Positions 650 to 52,904 are shown, counted from the first letter of the stretch. The stretch: DNA of 53,025 nucleotides from an uncultured Candidatus Saccharibacteria bacterium (GCA_964413715.1 CAYPSN010000002.1:66850-119874); one strand, 5' to 3'. Made by a program: numbers and translations. The notes: generated by a model from the sequence alone, not told the origin.

Positions 650-700
650 CACGTCATCAAATGTGTATTTGATCTGAAGAGTTCAAAAGAACGAAACGTG
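650..700 (+). ncRNA. Type III hammerhead ribozyme (HH8)
   Basis: CACGU-C (cleavage predicted after C655), stem I AUCAAA-UGUGUA-UUUGAU, CUGAAGA, stem II GUUC-AAAA-GAAC, GAAA, CGUG. All invariant core positions present. Small hairpin UGGCC/GGCCA at 609-624. Confidence 0.8.
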
Positions 701-36409: not shown

Positions 36410-36798
36410 CTTTGAATGCACATAGATACACTCAAAGACGAACACCACTCACATGCTTCACCCCACCGCAGCACTCATCTACATAAGTGCTCTGGTAGGG
36501 CCACCGAGGATTTCTCCTCGATGGTACTCACCCTCCCGCGATACCGACTAGCTTTTTTTCACTAGTCGACTTCTGTTGCCAGGCCGTCGCTACGACCCCG
36601 GAAACCCTGTTAGGGAGTCCCCACCAAGACCGGCAGATCCGGAGTGAGTCCGAAGAGGACTCGCACCTTCTCCACCGGCGGCGGGACTGGTCCGAAGACC
36701 GTTCCAATTTCCCGTGCGTCGTCACCCGCAAGAACAAGCCAGGGATAACCCCGACTCACCCTTGGGGAACGGCCGCCCGGTGTGCGGTAGCACATCAT
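36410..36798 (-). ncRNA. Structured GC-rich non-coding segment immediately 3' of ssrA (tmRNA-related fragment?)
   Basis: No credible ORF. Many helices. 15-nt exact copy (36570-36584) of a tmRNA segment (36996-37010), flanked by a compensated helix (CGAC/GTCG versus CCGC/GCGG). Confidence 0.4.
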
Positions 36799-36799
36799 C

Positions 36800-37163
36800 G
36801 TGGAGCTGGAGGGAATCGAACCCTCGTCCACCAGGTAGCAAACTTACTCGCTACGACCATTCCTGGTTTTGAACTTTGCAGCAGTTCGAGGGCCAGGTCA
36901 CTTGTACTGTGCTTGCGCGCAGCCAGCTGCCAAGTCTTTCCTTGAAGTCACTGTACTTTCACAGTGTCAGCGGTCTATCCCTGCTGTCTTCTCCGCTTCT
37001 GTTGCCAGGCTGCGGTGAATCGGCCCCGAATCTAAGCTTTTTACGGCCCTTTTCGTAACCTTCGCTATCAGGCGGCGGTTATGAGTTTGCCCTGTTTTAC
37101 GAGTCTGAGCAACTCGGGTCGCAAGTAAGCTAGCTAGTCCCGATGTCGAAACCAGTCAGCCCC
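36800..37163 (-). ncRNA. ssrA: tmRNA (SsrA)
   Basis: 5' GGGGCUGACUGGUUUCGAC, 3' GGACGAGGGUUCGAUUCCCUCCAGCUCCA. Acceptor stem has a G3-U pair. Candidate tag frame GGC AAA CUC AUA ACC GCC GCC UGA UAG. Terminal CCA not fully encoded (CGA). Confidence 0.9.
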
Positions 37164-37515: not shown

Positions 37516-37569
37516 GATAGTTTCGTCGTTTCCGACTCATCAGCCCGGACATACATCCGAGGACTATCC
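37516..37569 (-). ncRNA. Type III hammerhead ribozyme (HH6)
   Basis: Minus strand: GGAUAGU-C, stem I CUCGGA-UGUAUG-UCCGGG, CUGAUGA, stem II GUCG-GAAA-CGAC, GAAA, CUAUC. Cleavage predicted after C at 37562. Confidence 0.8.
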
Positions 37570-42156: not shown

Positions 42157-42936
42157 TTATTTTCTAGACTTGCCGCTACCAGCGTTCGCGCTTGCAACTC
42201 CTGTTTTTACCAATGTAAAAATCTGCTTCATTGCCTCGGCTATCTGTGGGCTCTCTATAATCGTACCGATAACTTCTTCGCCGTATGAAATCAGTGCGGT
42301 TTTGTTGCCATACACATATAGGTTCACAGGCGCCGTAAAGGCTTCGCGCGGCGCCCAGGCCATGTCTCGGAGCATTGCTTTGTCATGTTCACGACCGTAG
42401 CGGATATTATCTTCTTCAGCCGGTTCTATACCGTGCGCTTTTATACCCAGTTTGGCCCGCTGCTCCATGTGCTTGTACAAATCTTTGCCCAACACGTTAA
42501 AGTCAGCATCCGAGCGGATAAAGTAAATGTCTTTACCCGTCCTACGCTGGTCTTCGTACATCTTTATAATCCCTTCTTTACCCTGGAAGAAGCGCACGCC
42601 AGGCTGATGCTGATAGGTGTAGAAGTAATTCAGTAGCTGCGGCATGCTGTCTCGCACCAGTTTTTCGGTAGCAAGAATCTCCTTACGTTTTTCTTCGATA
42701 AGTCGCTCTAAATTTGTGGGGTTGGCGGGATGATAACTCAGCTTTTTGCCAGATTCATCCTTCTCAACAAGACCTAGTGCGCACAACTTGTCGAGAATCA
42801 TATAACAATTTGTACGTGTTTCACCAATCTTTTCAGCCAACTCTGGGGGTGTTAAATCACCAAACTTTATAAGCGTAATATATGCTTTTGCCTGGCTTTT
42901 GGTTAAGCCTATTTGTTGTAAGAGTTCTGCATTCAT
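42157..42936 (-). CDS. TrmB-family transcriptional regulator (paralog 2)
   Basis: IGLTKSQAKAYITLIKFGDLTPPELAEKIGETRTNCYMILDKLCALGLV wHTH. 259 aa. Confidence 0.8.
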   Translation of the reverse strand: MNAELLQQIGLTKSQAKAYITLIKFGDLTPPELAEKIGETRTNCYMILDKLCALGLVEKDESGKKLSYHPANPTNLERLIEEKRKEILATEKLVRDSMPQLLNYFYTYQHQPGVRFFQGKEGIIKMYEDQRRTGKDIYFIRSDADFNVLGKDLYKHMEQRAKLGIKAHGIEPAEEDNIRYGREHDKAMLRDMAWAPREAFTAPVNLYVYGNKTALISYGEEVIGTIIESPQIAEAMKQIFTLVKTGVASANAGSGKSRK

Positions 42937-42942
42937 GCTTCA

Positions 42943-42984
42943 ATTCTACTCTCTATATTCATTTTTGTCAAGCGTATTTTGACA
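42943..42984 (-). promoter_or_regulatory. Promoter of TrmB paralog 2 (leaderless) within a TGTCAA-N7-TTGACA palindrome
   Basis: TTGACA (42971-42966), 17-nt spacer, TAGAAT (42948-42943), then 6 nt to ATG 42936. Palindrome spans 42966-42984. Confidence 0.6.
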
Positions 42985-43033
42985 TAAATGTGTTAATTTT
43001 CTATCTGTAAGGTAAGTATTTGTTTATTTTATA

Positions 43034-43062
43034 TTGACTATTTAATGCTTTTATTATATACT
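43034..43062 (+). promoter_or_regulatory. Strong sigma70 promoter of the hammerhead-punctuated operon
   Basis: TTGACT 43034-43039, 17-nt spacer, TATACT 43057-43062. GC content jumps immediately downstream. Confidence 0.65.
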
Positions 43063-43119
43063 TCCCCAGGCTCAAGCAACCCCGCTAGAGCCAGCACCTC
43101 GACACGCCTAGGAGGCGAC

Positions 43120-43272
43120 ATGCACGACGATCAAGAGTGGTTCGACAACCGGGACCTCCTCCCCCGCGGAATCATCCTCGGAGTGAGGCCGAAGCCCACG
43201 AACACGCAAAGCAACACGCTGAGCGACGCACTCGAAGACCTGCTGGAGCGGCGCTTCCTGCGCCGACTCTGA
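43120..43272 (+). CDS. Small hypothetical protein (50 aa), first ORF of the operon
   Basis: ATG 43120 follows GGAGG by 5 nt. Sequence MHDDQEWFDNRDLLPRG... Confidence 0.45.
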   Translation: MHDDQEWFDNRDLLPRGIILGVRPKPTNTQSNTLSDALEDLLERRFLRRL

Positions 43273-43316
43273 CGAGGCAACAAGGTAAACGGGGCGGTAC
43301 CTACAAACCCGCCCCC

Positions 43317-43373
43317 CTGACTCGGAGAGTAACGCGCTCTCCCTGACGATGACCGCGCACGGTCGAAAGTCAG
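43317..43373 (+). ncRNA. Type III hammerhead ribozyme (HH1) preceded by a hairpin
   Basis: CUGACU-C (cleavage after 43323), stem I GGAGAG-UAACGCG-CUCUCC, CUGACGA, one extra U, stem II GACCG-CGCA-CGGUC, GAAA, GUCAG. Hairpin GGGGCGG/CCGCCCC at 43291-43315. Confidence 0.8.
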
Positions 43374-43397
43374 CCGCACCTTGAACCAAGGAGAACA

Positions 43398-44003
43398 ATG
43401 AGCACCCCAGCCCTACTGAAAGTCGTCCTGACGGGCGGTCCCTGCGCCGGAAAGACCACGGTCTTCCGCCGCATCGAGCAAGAGTACGGACACCTGGTAA
43501 CGCTGGTGCCCGAAGTAGCCACCATGCTGCTCTCGAGCGGCTACCCCATGCCCGGACGCGACCTCGACTGGTCGCCCGGCTGGCGAGACAGCTTCCAGCG
43601 AGCCATCGCCACGGTCCAGGAAGAGGTAGAGGCGGCCTACGAAATGCGAGCTAAGGAGCGAGGTCACCGCCTCCTCCTGACCGACCGAGGCCTGATGGAC
43701 GGAGCGGCCTACTACGACAGCCGAGCTGAGTTCCTGAGCGCAACCGGAATCGACCATGGCACTGCCCTGGCTCGATACCAGGCGGTCATCCACCTCGAAT
43801 CCGTCGCCATCGCTCAGCCGGAGCTCTACTCGAAGGGCAACAACCCCTTCCGCTTCGAGACACTTGAGGAGGCCATCCCTCTCGAGGCCAAAACCCGAAG
43901 CGCTTGGGCTGGCCACCCACAGCACACCATCCTGGAGGGCGCCGACCTCGACTACAAGGTTAGCGGTACGCTCAGGGTGCTCGCGGCCTACCTGCAGGCA
44001 TGA
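43398..44003 (+). CDS. P-loop NTPase/kinase-like protein (AAA_28/NadR-kinase-like)
   Basis: Walker A GGPCAGKTT. Roughly 200-aa single-domain P-loop protein. RBS AAGGAG. Confidence 0.65.
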   Translation: MSTPALLKVVLTGGPCAGKTTVFRRIEQEYGHLVTLVPEVATMLLSSGYPMPGRDLDWSPGWRDSFQRAIATVQEEVEAAYEMRAKERGHRLLLTDRGLMDGAAYYDSRAEFLSATGIDHGTALARYQAVIHLESVAIAQPELYSKGNNPFRFETLEEAIPLEAKTRSAWAGHPQHTILEGADLDYKVSGTLRVLAAYLQA

Positions 44004-44041
44004 GCAGTGCAAGGTTCCGGGAGGTCCTTTAAAAACCTCCC

Positions 44042-44094
44042 CTGACTCGCGGAGTGAGTGCTCCGCCTGACGAGCCGGAAACGGCGAAAGTCAG
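44042..44094 (+). ncRNA. Type III hammerhead ribozyme (HH2) preceded by a hairpin
   Basis: CUGACU-C (cleavage after 44048), stem I GCGGAG-UGAGUG-CUCCGC, CUGACGA, stem II GCCG-GAAA-CGGC, GAAA, GUCAG. Hairpin GGGAGGU/ACCUCCC at 44019-44041. Confidence 0.85.
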
Positions 44095-44117
44095 TCCGCA
44101 CCTTGAAGGAGGCTTAC

Positions 44118-44696
44118 ATGCCCACTGAACCGAACAACCCTATCGACGAGATCTTCATCTCGGTCGATATCGAGTGCGACGGGGACATCCCCGGCGACTA
44201 CTCGATGCTCAGCATCGGGGCCACTACCCTCGGCAACAGGTACGATCGCGACTTCTACGTCGAACTCCGGCCCATGACCGAACGGTACAACCCCGACAGC
44301 CTGGCAGTAGCCAGCCTGGACCGCACTCGTCTGCTCCGCGAGGGAGTGCCAGCTCAGGTAGCGATGGCTCGGTTTGCAGCCTGGATCGAGGAAGTCCGCG
44401 GACTCCATGGAGACGCCAAAGCGGTGTGTGTCACTCTCAGCGAGTGGGATAACGGCTGGCTCTACTGGTACTTCGTCCACTTCCTGGGCCAAAAGCCCCT
44501 CGGCTTCACCGGCATCGACATCAAGAGCTACTTCATGGGCAAGCATGACCTGAAGGAGTTCGCGGGCACACCCCGAACCGAGATGCTGAAGCACTACCCG
44601 AGTGAGATCGAGCACACGCACAACGCGCTCGACGACGCCCGGGAGCAAGCCGAGATCTTCTGGGCAATGTACCGAGCCCAGCCTCCACAGGCCTAA
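44118..44696 (+). CDS. DEDDh 3'-5' exonuclease (DnaQ-like fold)
   Basis: ExoI SVDIECDG, ExoIII HNALDDAREQA. ATG 44118 after GAAGGAGG. Confidence 0.75.
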   Translation: MPTEPNNPIDEIFISVDIECDGDIPGDYSMLSIGATTLGNRYDRDFYVELRPMTERYNPDSLAVASLDRTRLLREGVPAQVAMARFAAWIEEVRGLHGDAKAVCVTLSEWDNGWLYWYFVHFLGQKPLGFTGIDIKSYFMGKHDLKEFAGTPRTEMLKHYPSEIEHTHNALDDAREQAEIFWAMYRAQPPQA

Positions 44697-44738
44697 GAGA
44701 CACAGAGGTAACCGGGGTGGTACCTACAAACCCGCCCC

Positions 44739-44791
44739 CTGACTCGCGGAGTGAGTGCTCCGCCTGACGAGCCGGAAACGGCGAAAGTCAG
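44739..44791 (+). ncRNA. Type III hammerhead ribozyme (HH3) preceded by a hairpin
   Basis: Ribozyme sequence identical to HH2 (cleavage after 44745). Hairpin GGGGUGG/CCGCCCC at 44714-44738. Confidence 0.85.
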
Positions 44792-44816
44792 TCCGCACCT
44801 TGAACTAAGGAGACCG

Positions 44817-45119
44817 ATGAGAATCGTTCGTCAAGGATCTATCCCGCCCGACCGCAACATCCAGCGAGGAACTTGCAGGCACTGCGGCACAGTGGTGGAA
44901 GCCAACATAACCACTGAGTGCAACCGGCGTACAACGACCAGGGACATTTACACTGATTATGACCCGGATGGACGACCGCCCTACTACTACAGCAAGACTG
45001 TCACGACCGAATACTTTGAGACGGGTTGTCCAGTCTGCTCAAGGCCAATCTGTGTATCCTCGAGGGAAATCTCGAGTACCCATCGGCCGGATGCACCAAA
45101 AGAAAAGTGGAGCATGTAG
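44817..45119 (+). CDS. Small zinc-ribbon-like protein (100 aa)
   Basis: CRHC...CPVC cysteine pairs. ATG 44817 after AAGGAG. Confidence 0.5.
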   Translation: MRIVRQGSIPPDRNIQRGTCRHCGTVVEANITTECNRRTTTRDIYTDYDPDGRPPYYYSKTVTTEYFETGCPVCSRPICVSSREISSTHRPDAPKEKWSM

Positions 45120-45161
45120 GTAGGCGCACAAGGTTCCGGGAGGTCCTTTCAAAACCTCCCC

Positions 45162-45216
45162 CGACTCGGAGAGTAATGCGCTCTCCCTGACGATGACCGC
45201 GCACGGTCGAAAGTCG
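45162..45216 (+). ncRNA. Type III hammerhead ribozyme (HH4) preceded by a hairpin
   Basis: CGACU-C (cleavage after 45167), stem I GGAGAG-UAAUGCG-CUCUCC, CUGACGA, extra U, stem II GACCG-CGCA-CGGUC, GAAA, GUCG. Hairpin GGGAGGU/ACCUCCC at 45138-45160. Confidence 0.8.
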
Positions 45217-45247
45217 GTATACTGTATAATCTACGAAAAGGAGTTGC

Positions 45248-45883
45248 ATGACCGCACAAGTTATTACCATCGATGGAGGCGCTGGCGTAGGTGGCAGCAC
45301 CACGGCCGAAGCACTAAGTAAGGCACTCGGCTGCGAACACCTCAACGTCGGTGAAATCTACCGCGCCCTCACCTTCGAACTGGTTAGCCTCGGCTGGACG
45401 AAGAAGCAGATTATGAGCTCACCCATGCTGGCGGCCGAGCTGGCGGCCGGATTCAAGCTACAGATTGCTAACGGCAGCGTGGCTAGCGTGAATGGTCAAG
45501 ATTGCCAAGGCAAGCTACACGCAGCAGAAATCAGCAAGCTGGTTCCGACTGTTGCGGCCATTCCCGAGATGCGAGCTACCGCCAAGAAGGTAGAGAAGAA
45601 CTTCATTGCAACTCGGCCACTCAGCATCATCGAGGGTCGAGCGGGCGCCTGGAGTATCCCGCAAGCAGTGCTAAAAATCTGGCTGCATTGCGATCCAGAA
45701 ATCGCCGCCAAGCGGCGCGGCTGCACCGTAGCAGAGATCCTGGAGCGCAACCTAGCGGATGCTACACGCGAGCACTCGCCTATGATCAAGCACCCAGATG
45801 CAGTCGCCATCGACACGGGCAAGCTACTCCCGGCCGAGATTGTGCAGCGCATCACGCAGCTCTACCGCGAACTGGCAGAATGA
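45248..45883 (+). CDS. Cytidylate kinase-like P-loop kinase
   Basis: ITIDGGAGVGGST...LNVGEIYRAL resembles the Cmk N-terminus (IDGPxxxGKST...DTGxxYRA). P-loop Lys replaced (GVGGST). TATAAT at 45225-45230 upstream. Confidence 0.6.
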   Translation: MTAQVITIDGGAGVGGSTTAEALSKALGCEHLNVGEIYRALTFELVSLGWTKKQIMSSPMLAAELAAGFKLQIANGSVASVNGQDCQGKLHAAEISKLVPTVAAIPEMRATAKKVEKNFIATRPLSIIEGRAGAWSIPQAVLKIWLHCDPEIAAKRRGCTVAEILERNLADATREHSPMIKHPDAVAIDTGKLLPAEIVQRITQLYRELAE

Positions 45884-45927
45884 CGCGGACAGCTAGGTTC
45901 CTGGGGAGTCCTACCAAAACTCTCCCC

Positions 45928-45977
45928 CGATTCAGCAGATTATGTCTGCTCTGATGAGCCAAGCATGGCGAAAATCG
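45928..45977 (+). ncRNA. Type III hammerhead ribozyme (HH5) preceded by a hairpin
   Basis: CGAUU-C (cleavage after 45933), stem I AGCAGA-UUAUG-UCUGCU, CUGAUGA, stem II GCCA-AGCA-UGGC, GAAA, AUCG. Hairpin GGGGAGU/ACUCUCC at 45903-45925. Confidence 0.85.
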
Positions 45978-45995
45978 GTTATAGTTAGGAGAATA

Positions 45996-46520
45996 ATGAA
46001 CGAAGTTATCGAAATTGAACGCAAGTGGGTCCTCGATGGGCTACCTGAGGGGATCGTTCCGATAAAAAGCCATGAAATCGAACAGGCATACCTAGATGTT
46101 CGTGGTCTACGTTTGCGTAAAAAAGATGAGGGATACTTAATAACCTACAAGAGCAAGGGCGACTTAGCCCGCAGTGAGTGGGAGCAAGAGATTCCCGCTT
46201 GGACTTATGATGGGCTCAAAGCAGAAGCACGTGCGGTACTTCATAAAACTCGTCACGTCTACAATGGCGGCGAGGTGGCCCTAGAGCTCGATGAATACCA
46301 TGGCGAACTCGAAGGACTCTACACAATCGAAGCCGAATGGGCACTGGAAATCCCTAGCACACTCACCCTGAAAGCAAGACAAGAGCTGATTCAAGATGCC
46401 GAGAAGGCTGCCAAAAGCTACATTCTGCCCTATCAGTTCTCTAACGCTCACGAGGTCACAGGCCTTAAAGCTTATAGCAACCGCTCATTGGCAGTTCACG
46501 GCCTACCGAAGCCTAACTAA
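45996..46520 (+). CDS. CYTH-domain (triphosphate tunnel metalloenzyme) protein
   Basis: N-terminal EIERKW signature. ATG 45996 after AGGAGA. Backbone-like GC. Confidence 0.75.
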   Translation: MNEVIEIERKWVLDGLPEGIVPIKSHEIEQAYLDVRGLRLRKKDEGYLITYKSKGDLARSEWEQEIPAWTYDGLKAEARAVLHKTRHVYNGGEVALELDEYHGELEGLYTIEAEWALEIPSTLTLKARQELIQDAEKAAKSYILPYQFSNAHEVTGLKAYSNRSLAVHGLPKPN

Positions 46521-47569
46521 CCAAGTTCCTTCTTGAACTTCTCGACTAGTTCAACTGGAGCAGGGTCGATCTCGTTTAAAATGCCCATATATGCCGAAAC
46601 GTAGTCACCGAGCATAATTGTGCTAAGTAGCTGCTGAATGTGTGTGTTTCCTACTACTTCTACTTCGACAGGCTCGTAGCCGTGCTTAGCCAGCACTTGG
46701 CGCGTCACAACAAATCGTTTTTTTATACGTTCGCCATCGAGACTAGAATGAAGTTCCACCACCTGAGCATGCTTGTTTTCAGGAAACAGCCAACCTTGCA
46801 TTTCGTTATGATTCAGCTCAGGAAATACATTAGCGCTCGCCATTTGCTTGGCGTTTTCGTTAATATCAATCTTCCATTTATACGCCGCCGATGCCAACGT
46901 GGGGCCAGCATATATAATAGCGCCTTTGCCATGCAGTTGCTTAGCAATCTTTCGCGCCACAGAATCATCTGGTGCATCTAGATTCCACTGGGCCTTTTGT
47001 GTATCCAAATAGTCTGCTACATTTTGCAGCTCACGGCGCATGTCAACTTTGGAAGTTAAGCCAAGGTTTTCTAAAATGCATATTAACGCCTTAATGTCGG
47101 CGAAGACTCCTAGTCGAGGCTGAGAATAATGCTCGAGTTCAATATCTAAAAGCACTCTGTTTTTGGCCGACTTTTCGAGCAAGCCTCCACTCGACATAGT
47201 AATCACTTGTGAGTTATTGCGCTGTGCATCCTTTAGGCAACTTAGCGCCTCTTCTGTGTTACCTGAAGCGCTCGAAACTATTACAAGAGTTCGGTCATTC
47301 ACATAACCTGGCAAGCTATAGCCACGCACGACTTCAAGAGGAACAAGTAACTGCTCATTCAGCCAATTCTTCACAATCATGCCAGCCAAAGCTGAGCCGC
47401 CCATACCGGCAAAAATTATGTTGTGCACGCCTAATCCAAGCTCGGTACTGAGTTTGCCTCGCATGCTGTCAGCAAAGTTCAGTCGTAACTGTGCCGGTTG
47501 TGCGTCAATCGCATCGAAGATGTGGTGTTTGTCATATTTAGCTCGTTCGTCAGCCTTTACCATAACCAT
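46517..47569 (-). CDS. Bifunctional phosphoglucose/phosphomannose isomerase family (SIS domain)
   Basis: FAGMGGSALAG, VIVSSASGNTEE SIS motifs. Start moved to MVMVKADE (47569). Confidence 0.75.
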   Translation of the reverse strand: MVMVKADERAKYDKHHIFDAIDAQPAQLRLNFADSMRGKLSTELGLGVHNIIFAGMGGSALAGMIVKNWLNEQLLVPLEVVRGYSLPGYVNDRTLVIVSSASGNTEEALSCLKDAQRNNSQVITMSSGGLLEKSAKNRVLLDIELEHYSQPRLGVFADIKALICILENLGLTSKVDMRRELQNVADYLDTQKAQWNLDAPDDSVARKIAKQLHGKGAIIYAGPTLASAAYKWKIDINENAKQMASANVFPELNHNEMQGWLFPENKHAQVVELHSSLDGERIKKRFVVTRQVLAKHGYEPVEVEVVGNTHIQQLLSTIMLGDYVSAYMGILNEIDPAPVELVEKFKKELG

Positions 47570-52851: not shown

Positions 52852-52904
52852 GCAACTTTCGTCCTTTTGGACTCATCAGAATAACCCGACAGTTATTGAG
52901 TTGC
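52852..52904 (-). ncRNA. Type III hammerhead ribozyme (HH7) preceded by a UUCG-capped hairpin
   Basis: Minus strand: GCAACU-C (C at 52898), stem I AAUAAC-UGUCGG-GUUAUU, CUGAUGA, stem II GUCC-AAAA-GGAC, GAAA, GUUGC. A 10-bp hairpin CACCCCGGGC-UUCG-GCCUGGGGUG at 52905-52928 lies immediately 5' on that strand. Confidence 0.8.

What the first reader, a model, noticed from the sequence alone, without database searches (positions are those of the whole stretch)
43281..45216. Hairpin and ribozyme parts are shuffled between modules, with a long-range closing helix that competes with the Shine-Dalgarno sequence
Two hairpin types occur: type A GGGG(C/U)GG-UACCUACAAAC-CCGCCCC and type B GGGAGGU-CCUUU(A/C)AAA-ACCUCCC. 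Two ribozyme bodies occur: type 1 with GGAGAG/CUCUCC and GACCG/CGGUC, and type 2 with GCGGAG/CUCCGC and GCCG/CGGC. They appear in all four combinations: HH1 = A+1, HH2 = B+2, HH3 = A+2, HH4 = B+1. That pattern implies recombination at or near the cleavage site. In HH1-HH3 the whole module is bracketed by CAAGGU (43281-86, 44010-15, and 44703-09 with one bulge) and ACCUUG (43378-83, 44100-05, 44797-802). The ACCUUG segment can alternatively pair with the following SD (ACCUUGAACCAAGGAG in HH1). Cleavage, which removes CAAGGU, could therefore change RBS accessibility. In HH4 the 3' bracket is missing, and the sequence switches there to lower GC with a TATAAT box. This looks like a recombination breakpoint at the ribozyme's 3' edge.
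Basis: partly seen in the sequence, partly recalled or inferred. Interest (0 to 1): 0.7.

Follow-up and report, generated by a model that had tools for sequence, protein, structure and literature searches.

The report
Pseudoknot-plus-hammerhead spacers between operon genes

Summary
The sequence observation is essentially right. There are four modules, plus a fifth at 45894-45978. Each is a hairpin followed by a type III hammerhead with a complete catalytic core. The two hairpin types and two ribozyme bodies occur in all four combinations.

In about 40 homologous modules from Saccharibacteria/Patescibacteria assemblies, the upstream AAGGU covaries with the first bases of the hairpin loop. Examples are AAGG/CCUU, UAGG/CCUA, CAGG/CCUG, AGGG/CCCU, AGGUA/UACCU and GAGGC/GCCUC. 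This forms an H-type pseudoknot next to hammerhead stem III.

The proposed CAAGGU/ACCUUG bracket shows no covariation. Only AGGU/ACCU is conserved, and each half occurs without the other. Shine-Dalgarno occlusion is weak and specific to this window. The "GC switch" after HH4 is only a roughly 30-nt AU-rich leader.

Recombination is supported. HH2 and HH3 share 69 identical nucleotides. The orthologous operon, always beside a divergent TrmB gene, has different gene content and order in different genomes, with a module at nearly every gene junction.

The most likely function is ribozyme processing of the polycistronic mRNA. This would leave a pseudoknot-capped 3' end and a ribozyme-capped 5'-OH end. 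It is a new variant of the known clustered bacterial hammerheads. Cleavage is untested.

The parts
43034..43062 (+). Sigma-70-like promoter (TTGACT-17-TATACT) at the head of the GC-rich operon, divergent from the TrmB gene (42157-42936, minus strand).
   Evidence: 10 of 12 consensus matches. No other full promoter-like site and no terminator-like site on the + strand up to 46700. This is a consensus match only.
43283..43373 (+). Module 1 (HH1).
- Pseudoknot: S1 AGGUA 43283-87 pairs with UACCU 43298-302; hairpin 43291-43315.
- Type III hammerhead: stem III C-UGAC 43317-21 with GUCAG 43369-73; predicted cleavage after C 43323; stem I 43324-42; core CUGACGA 43343-49; extra U 43350; stem II 43351-64; GAAA 43365-68.
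43374..43397 (+). Leader 1: CCGCACCUUG plus SD AAGGAG (43388-93), ahead of the AAA_28 gene start at 43398.
   Evidence: The GCACCU leader is conserved in relatives, but it does not covary with the 5' flank.
44011..44094 (+). Module 2 (HH2).
- Pseudoknot: S1 AAGG 44011-14 pairs with CCUU 44026-29; hairpin 44019-41.
- Hammerhead 44042-44094: predicted cleavage after C 44048; core 44067-73; stem II GCCG-GAAA-CGGC 44074-85.
   Evidence: (Hammerhead_3, 39.6 bits, E 2e-06, below the gathering score of 48.5).
44095..44117 (+). Leader 2: UCCGCACCUUG plus SD GAAGGAGG, ahead of the exonuclease gene start at 44118.
44706..44791 (+). Module 3 (HH3).
- Pseudoknot: S1 AGGUA 44706-10 pairs with UACCU 44721-25; hairpin 44714-38.
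- Hammerhead 44739-44791: predicted cleavage after C 44745.
- Positions 44736-44804 are identical to 44039-44107 of module 2.
44792..44816 (+). Leader 3: UCCGCACCUUG plus SD UAAGGAG, ahead of the Zn-ribbon-like gene start at 44817.
45130..45217 (+). Module 4 (HH4).
- Pseudoknot: S1 AAGG 45130-33 pairs with CCUU 45145-48; hairpin 45138-60.
- Hammerhead 45161-45217: stem III is CCGAC/GUCGG, a compensatory change relative to HH1-3; predicted cleavage after C 45167; extra U 45194.
- It is followed by an AU-rich leader (45218-45247) in place of GCACCU.
45894..45978 (+).
- Pseudoknot: S1 UAGG 45894-97 pairs with CCUA 45910-13; hairpin 45903-27.
- Hammerhead: stem III CCGAU/AUCGG; predicted cleavage after C 45933; core CUGAUGA 45951-57.
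- It precedes the CYTH gene.
   Evidence: Orthologous modules: L015_7927 and L041_4793.
43120..46520 (+). The six genes that the modules separate:
- 50-aa ORF, 43120-43272
- AAA_28 P-loop protein, 43398-44003
- DEDD 3'-5' exonuclease, 44118-44696
- 100-aa Zn-ribbon-like protein, 44817-45119
- cytidylate kinase, 45248-45883
- CYTH protein, 45996-46520
43281..43286 (+). It overlaps pseudoknot strand S1. It can pair with ACCUUG in this window, but that pairing is not conserved or covarying elsewhere.
   Evidence: (drawn in the MFE fold of HH1 only).

Best explanation
Each intergenic spacer of this operon is a compact processing module about 125 nt long. The genome is most likely a Saccharibacteria (Patescibacteria) chromosome.

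The parts of a module, in order:
1. A median of 7 nt after the stop codon comes an H-type pseudoknot. S1 has 4-5 bp (the 'AAGG(U)' flank paired with the first bases of the hairpin loop). L1 is about 4 nt (UUCC). S2 is the 7-bp GC-rich hairpin. L3 is an A-rich xCAAA(A).
2. Zero to two nucleotides later comes a type III hammerhead with a short open stem III of about 5 bp plus the A15.1-U16.1 pair.
3. When another gene follows, there is a conserved GCACCU leader and a Shine-Dalgarno sequence. The start codon lies a median of 25 nt after the ribozyme.

Inferred mechanism:
- The operon is transcribed as one RNA from the promoter at about 43034-43062.
- Each hammerhead cleaves itself after the C of the GACUC/GAUUC triplet.
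- The upstream mRNA then ends 7-8 nt after a stable pseudoknot, with a 2',3'-cyclic phosphate.
- The downstream mRNA starts with a 5'-OH and the folded stems I and II of the ribozyme.
- Every cistron becomes a separate message with structured, exonuclease-resistant ends, and its translation start is insulated from whatever gene lies upstream.
- The pseudoknot probably also keeps upstream coding sequence from interfering with ribozyme folding, and it may stack on the short stem III.

Because the modules are about 100-nt direct repeats, they recombine. This gives gene conversion and cassette loss, gain and reordering, and it produces the A/B x 1/2 mosaic.

Shown: the module anatomy, the covariation, the distribution in other genomes, the mosaicism, and the variability of the locus.
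Inferred: that cleavage actually occurs, that the ends protect the RNA, and that the modules insulate translation.
For: Hammerhead identity:
- The core is complete in all five modules: CUGAYGA, GAAA, UC before the cleavage site, and a G-C pair closing stem II.
- Hammerhead_3 hits HH2 and HH3 at E 2e-06.
- In 32 homologues, 14 of 17 RNAalifold pairs carry compensatory changes in stems I and III and in the hairpin.
- Stem III changes in a compensatory way inside the window: CUGAC/GUCAG, then CCGAC/GUCGG, then CCGAU/AUCGG.
- The extra U of body 1 is conserved alongside a covarying stem II in L019_7171 and L022_586.

Pseudoknot:
- It sits in the same register in about 27 of 33 modules.
- Permutation test: own partners 4.33 versus shuffled partners 3.85+-0.10, with 0 of 2000 shuffles as good.
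- Pair count: 13 double-change cells versus 4.8+-1.7, and covariation 0.193 versus 0.106, with 0 of 500 shuffles as high; slid controls reach at most 0.12.
- By my reading of modules fetched afterwards, 8 of 9 keep it, including the new variants AGGC/GCCU and CAGGU/ACCUG.

Packaging: stop codon to pseudoknot is a median of 7 nt; ribozyme end to start codon is a median of 25 nt.

The module goes with the upstream gene's 3' end. Terminal modules keep the pseudoknot or hairpin and the ribozyme but lack the leader and SD. Examples: L013_5518, L016_3338, L023_5977, L033_140, and window 52853-52903 after a Band_7 gene. One (L031) is followed by an intrinsic terminator.

Single transcript: one promoter-like site and no terminator-like site across the operon.

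Recombination.

Precedent: clustered hammerheads that flank single genes of varying identity cleave in vitro and in vivo, and were proposed to process long transcripts (PMC3088659).
Against: - There are no cleavage or transcript-end data for any of these modules.
- Rfam scores are below the gathering threshold. HH1, HH4 and HH5 are not reported at all at E<=10.
- Nearest-neighbour folding prefers an inactive pairing of the core CUGAC with GUCAG. That model cannot represent hammerhead tertiary structure or pseudoknots.
- Pseudoknot S1 is short. Its outer pair is unpaired in 9 of 29 modules. Several of the compensatory variants come from related genomes, so the number of independent events is roughly 5-6, not 13.
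- A minority of modules use a plain hairpin instead of a pseudoknot, so the pseudoknot is not obligatory.
- The role of the conserved GCACCU leader is unexplained. A transient AGGU/ACCU pairing cannot be excluded.
Confidence: 0.6

Rival explanations
1. A long-range helix, CAAGGU/ACCUUG, closes the whole module. After cleavage removes CAAGGU, ACCUUG is free to pair with the Shine-Dalgarno sequence, so ribozyme cleavage changes translation of the downstream gene.
For: - The 6-bp complementarity is present in HH1 and HH2, in HH3 with a bulge, and in L018_653.
- The MFE fold of HH1 draws this helix.
- The local ACCUUG/SD hairpins are -4.1, -3.3 and -2.5 kcal/mol in HH1-3. Modelled SD accessibility falls slightly after cleavage: HH1 0.12 to 0.01, HH3 0.14 to 0.10, HH2 0.61 to 0.50.
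- The inner AGGU/ACCU pairing is possible in 15-19 of 20 homologues.
Against: - There is no covariation: 0.066 versus 0.070 shuffled, with 292 of 500 shuffles as high. The outer two pairs form in 6-7 of 20 modules.
- A module's own flanks pair no better than flanks taken from different modules.
- Where the 3' element varies (ACCCC, ACCUC, ACCUA), the 5' side does not compensate.
- GCACCU is present with hairpins that have no AAGGU flank and with the alternative motif X. AAGGUUCC is present without ACCU in HH4, HH5 and the terminal modules.
- AAGGU has a covarying partner in the hairpin loop.
- In most relatives the SD hairpin is only 3 bp, -0.6 to -2.1 kcal/mol. Mean SD accessibility is 0.46 both before and after cleavage.
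Confidence: 0.12
2. The modules are primarily the boundaries of exchangeable gene cassettes. The array would be integron-like but without an integrase, sitting at a chromosomal hotspot beside TrmB. Recombination at or near the ribozyme junction moves the genes. This could happen at the DNA level between repeats, or through ribozyme-bounded RNAs that circularise and are copied back. RNA processing would be secondary.
For: - The same locus (TrmB divergent on one side, PGI or FemAB on the other) carries from 2 to about 6 genes in different orders, with a module at nearly every gene junction.
- Exo and AAA_28 are swapped between the window and L041. AAA_28 keeps body 1 upstream and hairpin B downstream. 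Exo keeps body 2 upstream and hairpin A downstream.
- AAA_28 is present in L024 and absent in L023, exactly between two modules.
- The operon is GC-rich relative to its flanks in three lineages.
- Hammerhead products (5'-OH plus 2',3'-cP) are ligatable ends. This last point is general knowledge.
Against: - No integrase or reverse transcriptase was seen among the neighbouring genes examined.
- No GTTRRRY-type core sites were seen by direct reading.
- The body-to-gene linkage has exceptions. cmk is preceded by body 1 in the window but body 2' in L041. AAA_28 is preceded by body 2' in L018.
- With only two types on each side, the agreement seen is near chance.
- The within-genome identity of bodies is explained more simply by gene conversion between repeats.
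- Perreault et al. looked for circular or spliced products of clustered hammerheads and found none.
Confidence: 0.15
3. The pseudoknot is a sensor that switches the ribozyme on or off. It could respond to a small ligand, as a preQ1-I-like aptamer would, or to the terminating ribosome.
For: - The topology, the AGGUUC sequence and the A-rich L3 recall preQ1-I aptamers. This resemblance is recalled from memory, not tested beyond the Rfam scan.
- The pseudoknot starts 5-13 nt after the stop codon in most modules. From general knowledge of ribosome footprints, that is about where a terminating ribosome's footprint ends.
Against: - There is no PreQ1 or other riboswitch hit, even at E<=10.
- S2 is a 7-bp GC-rich helix, and there is no L2 that could hold a ligand-pairing base, so the fold should form constitutively.
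- Some modules replace the pseudoknot with a plain GC hairpin.
- The same pseudoknot also precedes the non-hammerhead motif X.
Confidence: 0.06
4. The hammerheads are inactive relics. The spacers would then work only as structured intercistronic elements, for example RNase III or RNase Y sites, or as stabilising hairpins.
For: - Rfam scores are sub-threshold.
- There is an insertion in the core of body 1.
- In relatives, a non-hammerhead stem-loop motif (X) occupies the same position. So a protein nuclease could be doing the cutting.
Against: - Every core position stays at consensus across about 45 modules, while the stems vary and compensate. That is the signature of selection for catalysis.
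Confidence: 0.07

Closest known systems
Clustered type I-III hammerhead ribozymes that flank single genes in bacterial and prophage DNA (Perreault et al. 2011, PMC3088659)
   Same: - Several hammerheads lie close together on one strand and flank single genes whose identity is not constant.
- Those hammerheads were shown to cleave within about 2-kb polycistronic RNAs.
- They were proposed to cut long transcripts into gene-length mRNAs.
   Different: - Here the array lies in a chromosomal operon at a conserved locus of Saccharibacteria. No integrase or phage genes were seen nearby.
- Each ribozyme is preceded by a conserved, covarying H-type pseudoknot and followed by a conserved GCACCU leader.
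- In relatives, a different structured motif can stand in for the hammerhead.
- I found nothing in the searchable library that describes this pseudoknot-hammerhead pairing, or hammerheads in Saccharibacteria or Patescibacteria.
RiboJ-type synthetic ribozyme insulators (a hammerhead plus a hairpin placed between promoter or upstream gene and the RBS). Recalled from general knowledge.
   Same: A self-cleaving hammerhead removes the upstream RNA context. The downstream gene therefore starts with a defined, structured 5' end a fixed distance from its SD.
   Different: RiboJ is engineered and has no upstream 3'-end-capping pseudoknot. Here the arrangement is natural, repeated five times in one operon, and conserved across genomes.
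H-type pseudoknots with an A-rich third loop (the preQ1-I aptamer, and viral frameshift or readthrough pseudoknots 6-9 nt after the decoded codon). Recalled from general knowledge.
   Same: The topology is S1-L1-S2-S1'-L3-S2', with no L2 and an A-rich L3. The AGGUUC sequence is shared with preQ1-I. The spacing after the stop codon is a median of 7 nt.
   Different: - There is no Rfam match.
- S2 is long and GC-rich.
- No open reading frame continues past the stop codon.
- The element sits at what becomes a 3' end.
Integron cassette arrays
   Same: A conserved locus holds a variable string of promoterless, same-strand genes, each separated by a structured repeat. Gene order and content differ between close relatives.
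   Different: No integrase was found. The repeats are ribozymes, not attC sites. The exchange is explained most simply by homologous recombination between repeats.
RNase III processing hairpins between phage T7 early genes. Recalled from general knowledge.
   Same: Structured intercistronic elements cut a polycistronic RNA and leave stabilising hairpins at the 3' ends.
   Different: Here the cutting is predicted to be done by the RNA itself. Motif X in the relatives may be closer to this model.

Membership tests
Hammerhead ribozyme, type III | Conserved catalytic core: C3-U4-G5-A6-N7-G8-A9, G12-A13-A14, the A15.1-U16.1 pair, and H17 at the cleavage site. | tested here: met
   All five modules carry CUGA(C/U)GA, GAAA and U-C before the cleavage site. 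Body 1 has one extra U between A9 and stem II. That U is conserved in homologues.
Hammerhead ribozyme, type III | Three helices around the core, with stems I and II closed by loops and stem III open, supported by covariation. | tested here: met
   In RNAalifold on 32 modules, 14 of 17 pairs carry compensatory changes; stem I has up to 18 double changes per pair and stem III up to 6. Stem II was misaligned by MAFFT, but it pairs in every copy read directly.
Hammerhead ribozyme, type III | Reaches the Rfam RF00008 gathering score. | tested here: not met
   HH2 and HH3 score 39.6 bits against a gathering score of 48.5, with E 2e-06. HH1, HH4 and HH5 are not reported at E<=10. This is a curated score cut-off, not a structural criterion.
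Hammerhead ribozyme, type III | Site-specific self-cleavage that gives 2',3'-cyclic phosphate and 5'-OH ends. | not testable with these tools
   This needs in vitro transcription or end mapping.
Hammerhead ribozyme, type III | A tertiary contact between loops 1 and 2, needed for fast cleavage at low Mg2+. | tested here: inconclusive
   Body 1 and its relatives can pair loop 1 GCG with loop 2 CGC (seen by eye). Body 2 has a GAAA loop 2. No formal test was run.
H-type RNA pseudoknot | Two helices with crossing pairs, each supported by covariation. | tested here: met
   S2 (the hairpin): compensatory changes. S1: covariation 0.193 versus 0.106, with 0 of 500 shuffles as high, and 0 of 2000 permutations as good. 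Pair types at the two variable positions are AU, CG, GC, UA and GU.
H-type RNA pseudoknot | Loop lengths that can span the helices. | tested here: met
   L1 is 3-6 nt across a 7-bp S2. L2 is 0. L3 is 4-6 nt across a 4-5-bp S1. Feasibility was judged from general knowledge of pseudoknot geometry. No 3D model was made.
preQ1-I riboswitch | A match to the family covariance model, and an L2 cytidine that pairs with the ligand. | tested here: not met
   There is no PreQ1 hit at E<=10 in 42900-45700. There is no L2 between S2 and S1'.
Integron cassette array | An adjacent tyrosine-recombinase IntI gene, and attC sites with RYYYAAC/GTTRRRY cores. | tested here: not met
   The neighbouring genes are TrmB, PGI, GroEL and FemAB. 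No integrase domain appears or 62-64. The module ends (CAAGGUUCC ... GCACCUUG) do not fit GTTRRRY on direct reading.
Other known self-cleaving ribozyme classes (twister, twister-sister, pistol, hatchet, HDV-like, hairpin), considered for motif X of the relatives | A match to the Rfam covariance models. | tested here: not met
   No ribozyme family is reported at E<=1 over L041, L043, L044 and L045, or at E<=10 over L045 1000-2300.

The most novel reading that the evidence does not exclude
Saccharibacteria keep a ribozyme-bounded, plug-and-play cassette operon next to a TrmB regulator. Every cassette carries its own self-cleaving 5' boundary and pseudoknot-capped 3' boundary, so genes can be lost, gained and reordered by recombination at the ribozyme junction without disturbing expression. 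In some lineages the hammerhead has been replaced at the same position by motif X (H0 hairpin-CCCNA-CCARRG..CUCG..CGAG..CUYUGG-CCGGG..CCGG). Motif X matches no Rfam family and could be an undescribed self-cleaving ribozyme class.
Probability: 0.2. Interest if true: 0.85.

Novelty: new variant of a known kind. Interest (0 to 1): 0.6.

Why it matters
The biological role of bacterial hammerheads has been open since hundreds were catalogued in 2011. This system makes the question directly testable, for four reasons:
- Five ribozymes sit in one operon.
- Each has a defined partner structure upstream, the pseudoknot, which stays on the upstream product.
- Each has a conserved leader downstream.
- There are many natural variants, including terminal modules with no downstream gene, and relatives in which the ribozyme is swapped for another motif.

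The system points to a natural counterpart of synthetic ribozyme insulators, and to a ribozyme-based way of forming mRNA 3' ends. It shows how repeated ribozymes can make an operon modular and recombinogenic. The position-equivalent motif X is a concrete candidate for finding a new ribozyme by the same guilt-by-association logic that yielded twister-sister, pistol and hatchet.

Tried and rejected
- **Rfam at gathering thresholds** found only the tmRNA and a tRNA. The hammerheads appear only below threshold.
- **Viral contig scan** with GACTC..CTGACGA..CGAAAGTC returned 8 loci, all chance matches inside coding sequence with no stems. The family was not found in IMG/VR with that pattern.
- **Exact-protein look-up** of the AAA_28 protein returned only contigs identical to the window. 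There were no differences over 43000-46600, so it gave no comparative information.
- **Closing helix:** tested in two ways and not supported.
- **SD/anti-SD switch:** modelled and found weak and not conserved.
- **GC-switch breakpoint at HH4:** rejected.
- **Internal promoter at the TATAAT after HH4:** no -35 match.
- **preQ1-like aptamer:** no hit.
- **Integron:** no integrase and no attC cores.
- **Phage origin of the genes:** PHROGs gave only weak generic nucleotide-metabolism hits. NCBIfam named only cmk.
- **MAFFT alignments of whole modules** put the pseudoknot and stem II out of register. I therefore used sequence-anchored fixed-length extracts (A4, A5). The anchors were the last G of the 5' G-run, and the first C of the loop or leader C-run. 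The anchor pair is paired by construction and carries no information.
- **No covariance model was built.** The regex scans found the copies, and the model would not have captured the pseudoknot.
- **Motif X** was compared by hand with HDV-like, twister, pistol and hairpin-ribozyme architectures, without a convincing fit.

Full report
**What is in the window**

- There are two hairpin types. Type A is in HH1 and HH3. Type B is in HH2 and HH4.
- There are two ribozyme bodies. Body 1 is in HH1 and HH4. Body 2 is in HH2 and HH3. All four combinations therefore occur.
- CAAGGU, or CAGAGGU in HH3, lies upstream of all four modules. ACCUUG lies downstream of HH1-3 only.

Each body is a type III hammerhead. 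Reading 5' to 3', it has these parts:
1. Stem III 5' strand, (C)UGAC.
2. U-C, followed by the predicted cleavage site.
3. Stem I hairpin.
4. Core CUGACGA.
5. Stem II hairpin.
6. GAAA.
7. Stem III 3' strand, GUCA(G).

The pattern CTGANGA..CGAAAGTC matches four times against 0.00 expected. A looser pattern and a stem-aware script found four more hammerheads:
- a fifth module, HH5, at 45894-45978 in the same operon;
- 650-700 on the + strand;
- 37517-37567 on the - strand;
- 52853-52903 on the - strand.

Rfam reports HH2, HH3 and the 37.5-kb copy as Hammerhead_3, but below the gathering score (39.6-43.9 versus 48.5 bits). Body 1 has an extra U between A9 and stem II.

**Genomic setting**

The window is cellular DNA. 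It encodes PolA, DnaG, a Mur ligase, LytR, GroEL, a tmRNA and tRNA-Ser.

The modules separate six + strand genes:
- a 50-aa ORF;
- an AAA_28 P-loop protein;
- a DEDD exonuclease;
- a 100-aa Zn-ribbon-like protein;
- cytidylate kinase;
- a CYTH protein.

A sigma-70-like promoter at 43034-43062 precedes them. There are no other promoter-like or terminator-like sites on that strand up to 46700. A divergent TrmB gene lies upstream.

The operon is GC-rich, at 0.50-0.64 per gene against about 0.45-0.50 in the neighbouring genes. It is actually after HH5. cmk is 58% GC, and only a roughly 30-nt leader after HH4 is AT-rich.

**Relatives**

One degenerate pattern that does not include the disputed flanks was scanned once against GTDB representative genomes and once against JGI metagenomes. 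It returned 13 and 17 loci. Nearly all of the named ones are Candidatus Saccharibacteria, Saccharimonadia or other Patescibacteria assemblies. Several carry 3-4 modules in a row.

A stem-aware scan gave 47 distinct hammerheads. Contigs that encode homologues of the exonuclease added more.

RNAalifold on 32 full modules recovers the hairpin, stem III and stem I. Compensatory changes occur in 14 of 17 pairs. The core never varies. These are therefore ribozymes under selection, although cleavage itself is untested.

**The partner of AAGGU**

Across the family, the upstream AAGG(U) is complementary to the first nucleotides of the hairpin loop, in a constant register. The linker is 3-6 nt and the pairing starts at loop position 0-2. 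The two sides change together. Observed pairs are:
- AAGG/CCUU
- AAAGG/CCUUU
- UAGG/CCUA (window HH5)
- CAGG/CCUG
- CAGGU/ACCUG
- AGGG/CCCU
- AGGUA/UACCU (type A)
- GAGGC/GCCUC
- CGGGGU/ACCUCG
- CAAG/CUUG

Two tests support this pairing.
- **Permutation test.** This test re-optimises the register for every shuffled partner, so it is not biased by fitting. Own partners score 4.33 and shuffled partners 3.85+-0.10. None of 2000 shuffles reaches the observed value.
- **Pair count.** On a sequence-anchored alignment, there are 13 double-change cells against 4.8+-1.7 shuffled. Covariation is 0.193 against 0.106, and 0 of 500 shuffles are as high. All slid controls are lower.

Of nine modules fetched afterwards, by my reading eight keep the pairing. 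They include the new variants AGGC/GCCU and CAGGU/ACCUG.

The result is an H-type pseudoknot:
- S1 has 4-5 bp.
- L1 is about UUCC.
- S2 is the 7-bp hairpin.
- There is no L2.
- L3 is A-rich, xCAAA(A).

Its 3' strand ends 0-2 nt before hammerhead stem III.

Two caveats apply. S1 is short, and the variants represent perhaps 5-6 independent events.

**The closing helix and the SD switch**

- Own flanks score 4.21 and shuffled partners 4.32+-0.12. 1683 of 2000 shuffles are at least as good.
- Covariation is 0.066 against 0.070 shuffled, and 292 of 500 shuffles are as high.
- Only AGGU/ACCU is conserved. The outer two pairs form in 6-7 of 20 modules.
- When the 3' element changes (ACCCC, ACCUC, ACCUA), the 5' side does not follow.

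The two halves also occur independently of each other.
- GCACCU follows modules whose 5' element is a long GC hairpin with no AAGGU (L016_1542, L023_4885, L035_2869).
- GCACCU also follows the non-hammerhead motif X.
- AAGGUUCC precedes modules that have no ACCU. These are HH4, HH5, L015_7927 and all the terminal modules.

So AAGGU belongs with the hairpin, and GCACCU belongs with the downstream gene's leader.

Pairing of the leader with the SD reaches 4-5 bp in this window only, at -4.1, -3.3 and -2.5 kcal/mol. In all but one relative it is a 3-bp CCU/AGG contact of -0.6 to -2.1 kcal/mol. Modelled SD accessibility is the same before and after cleavage, mean 0.46 versus 0.46. A transient switch in this particular genome cannot be excluded, but comparative evidence does not support it.

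**Mosaicism and recombination**

- HH2 and HH3 are identical over 69 nt, from CCCCUGACUC to CACCUUGAA.
- HH1 and HH4 differ at 3 positions over the body. Two of the three are the compensatory stem III pair.
- The pseudoknot halves pair up the other way, HH1 with HH3 and HH2 with HH4.

The closest relative is L041, whose exonuclease is 86% identical. It has the same locus, but with the order 101aa-Exo-AAA28-cmk-CYTH. Its two type-2 bodies are identical to each other and differ from the window's two (stem II GCUC-GAAA-GAGC versus GCCG-GAAA-CGGC). That is concerted evolution within each genome.

Mapping the window's proteins and all the modules onto every locus shows the operon beside a divergent TrmB gene wherever enough flank was recovered. 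Its gene content and order vary:
- L021: two small genes.
- L019: Exo-AAA28.
- L024: Znr-Exo-AAA28-CYTH.
- L023: Znr-Exo only.
- L043 and L045: further small genes.

A module sits at nearly every gene junction.

The simplest cause is homologous exchange between direct repeats of about 100 nt. The evidence that each gene travels with its upstream body and its downstream pseudoknot is suggestive only. AAA_28 and Exo fit that pattern, but cmk and L018 do not.

**Function**

The modules fill the spacers tightly. The stop codon to the pseudoknot is a median of 7 nt. The ribozyme end to the start codon is a median of 25 nt.

Modules at the end of a transcription unit keep the pseudoknot or hairpin and the ribozyme, but they lose the leader and SD. 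The copy after the Band_7 gene at 52853-52903, which is conserved in L012 and L015, is one example. L031 is followed by an intrinsic terminator.

This points to 3'-end formation for the upstream gene as the constant role. After cleavage:
- The upstream message ends 7-8 nt past a pseudoknot, with a cyclic phosphate.
- The downstream message begins with a 5'-OH and the folded ribozyme.

This fits the proposal of Perreault et al. for clustered hammerheads (PMC3088659), and it resembles synthetic ribozyme insulators. End protection and insulation are inferences, not results.

**Comparison with what is known, and novelty**

Clustered hammerheads that flank genes of varying identity are known. I found no description of the following points in the searchable literature:
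- the covarying pseudoknot partner;
- the conserved leader;
- the chromosomal TrmB-adjacent hypervariable operon in Saccharibacteria;
- the substitution of the hammerhead by another motif.

I therefore rate this a new variant of a known kind.

**Side lead**

In L042/43, L044-L046 and L048-L050, some or all junctions of the same operon carry motif X in place of a hammerhead. Motif X has these parts, in order:
1. A GC hairpin, or the same pseudoknot.
2. CCCNA.
3. A 6-bp helix that covaries (CCAAGG/UCUUGG, CCAGAG/CUCUGG, CACUAG/UUAGUG).
4. A conserved CUCR..YGAG helix enclosed by that 6-bp helix.
5. A CCGGG..CCGG hairpin.
6. The usual ACCUU leader.

This is based. Motif X matches no Rfam family. 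It may be an RNase III-type site or an undescribed ribozyme. It is absent from the window.

Noticed in passing
window 650-700 (+): A further type III hammerhead, CACG-UC|AUCAAA..UUUGAU-CUGAAGA-GUUC-AAAA-GAAC-GAAA-CGUG. It lies after the ORF at 217-591 and converges on the polA operon. An imperfect hairpin, GGCUGGCC..GGCCAACC, lies about 22 nt upstream. No pseudoknot is evident.
   Followed up: partly
window 37517-37567 (-): A type III hammerhead (Hammerhead_3, 43.9 bits) on the same strand as the tmRNA gene (36798-37163) and about 350 nt upstream of it. It sits inside a GC-rich stretch (36-38 kb, GC 0.57-0.59). A called 77-aa ORF lies between the two. Whether the hammerhead is linked to tmRNA transcript processing is unknown.
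   Followed up: no
window 52853-52903 (-), with hairpins up to about 52960: A hammerhead preceded by two hairpins, AGGAGU..ACUCCU and CACCCCGGGC-UUCG-GCCUGGGGUG. It lies just after the stop codon of a Band_7 gene and converges on a TrmB-family gene. It is conserved in L012 (4885-) and L015 (2915+). This is a terminal module with no downstream gene.
   Followed up: partly
L045 1275-1400, 1759-1865, 2128-2244; L043 5752-5889, 6755-6874; L046 207-317; L048 1-89; L049 1312-1420, 1683-1799; L050 1099-1220, 1486-1617, 2519-2653: Motif X is a conserved three-helix element that takes the place of the hammerhead at junctions of the orthologous operon. It has the same upstream hairpin or pseudoknot and the same ACCUU leader. 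Its P1 helix covaries. It has no Rfam match at E<=1 or E<=10. It is either a candidate nuclease site or a new ribozyme.
   Followed up: partly
window 43350 and 45194: Body 1 carries an extra U between core A9 and stem II (CUGACGA-U-GACCG). The U is conserved in homologues whose stem II has changed (L019_7171, L021_4199, L022_586). This may be why the Rfam model misses these copies.
   Followed up: partly
window 43060-45900; also 9-10 kb, 13-14 kb, 22-24 kb, 36-38 kb and 51-52 kb: These are GC-rich islands (0.54-0.61) in a genome of about 0.47-0.50 GC. The operon studied here is GC-rich relative to its flanks in L041 and L043 as well. So the composition travels with these genes across lineages. 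The other islands were not examined.
   Followed up: partly
window 43374-43383, 44095-44105, 44792-44802, and homologues: The conserved leader (G)CCGCACCU(U/C)(G/A) resembles the 3' end of 16S rRNA (..CACCUCC..). That makes it an anti-SD look-alike, not an SD complement. Its role is unexplained. A second, AU-rich leader type (GGUAUA..) follows HH4, HH5 and L015_7927.
   Followed up: partly
L021 3844-4522, compared with window 43120-46520: In a relative whose TrmB is 83% identical and whose PGI is 84% identical, the whole operon between those two genes is just two small genes with one hammerhead module. This shows cassette-scale gain or loss at a fixed locus.
   Followed up: partly
window 43343-43347 and 43369-43373, and the equivalent positions in HH2-4: The stem III 5' strand CUGAC has the same sequence as the start of the core CUGACGA. 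Nearest-neighbour folding therefore pairs GUCAG with the core instead. This is a possible inactive alternative conformer, and the adjacent pseudoknot might disfavour it.
   Followed up: no
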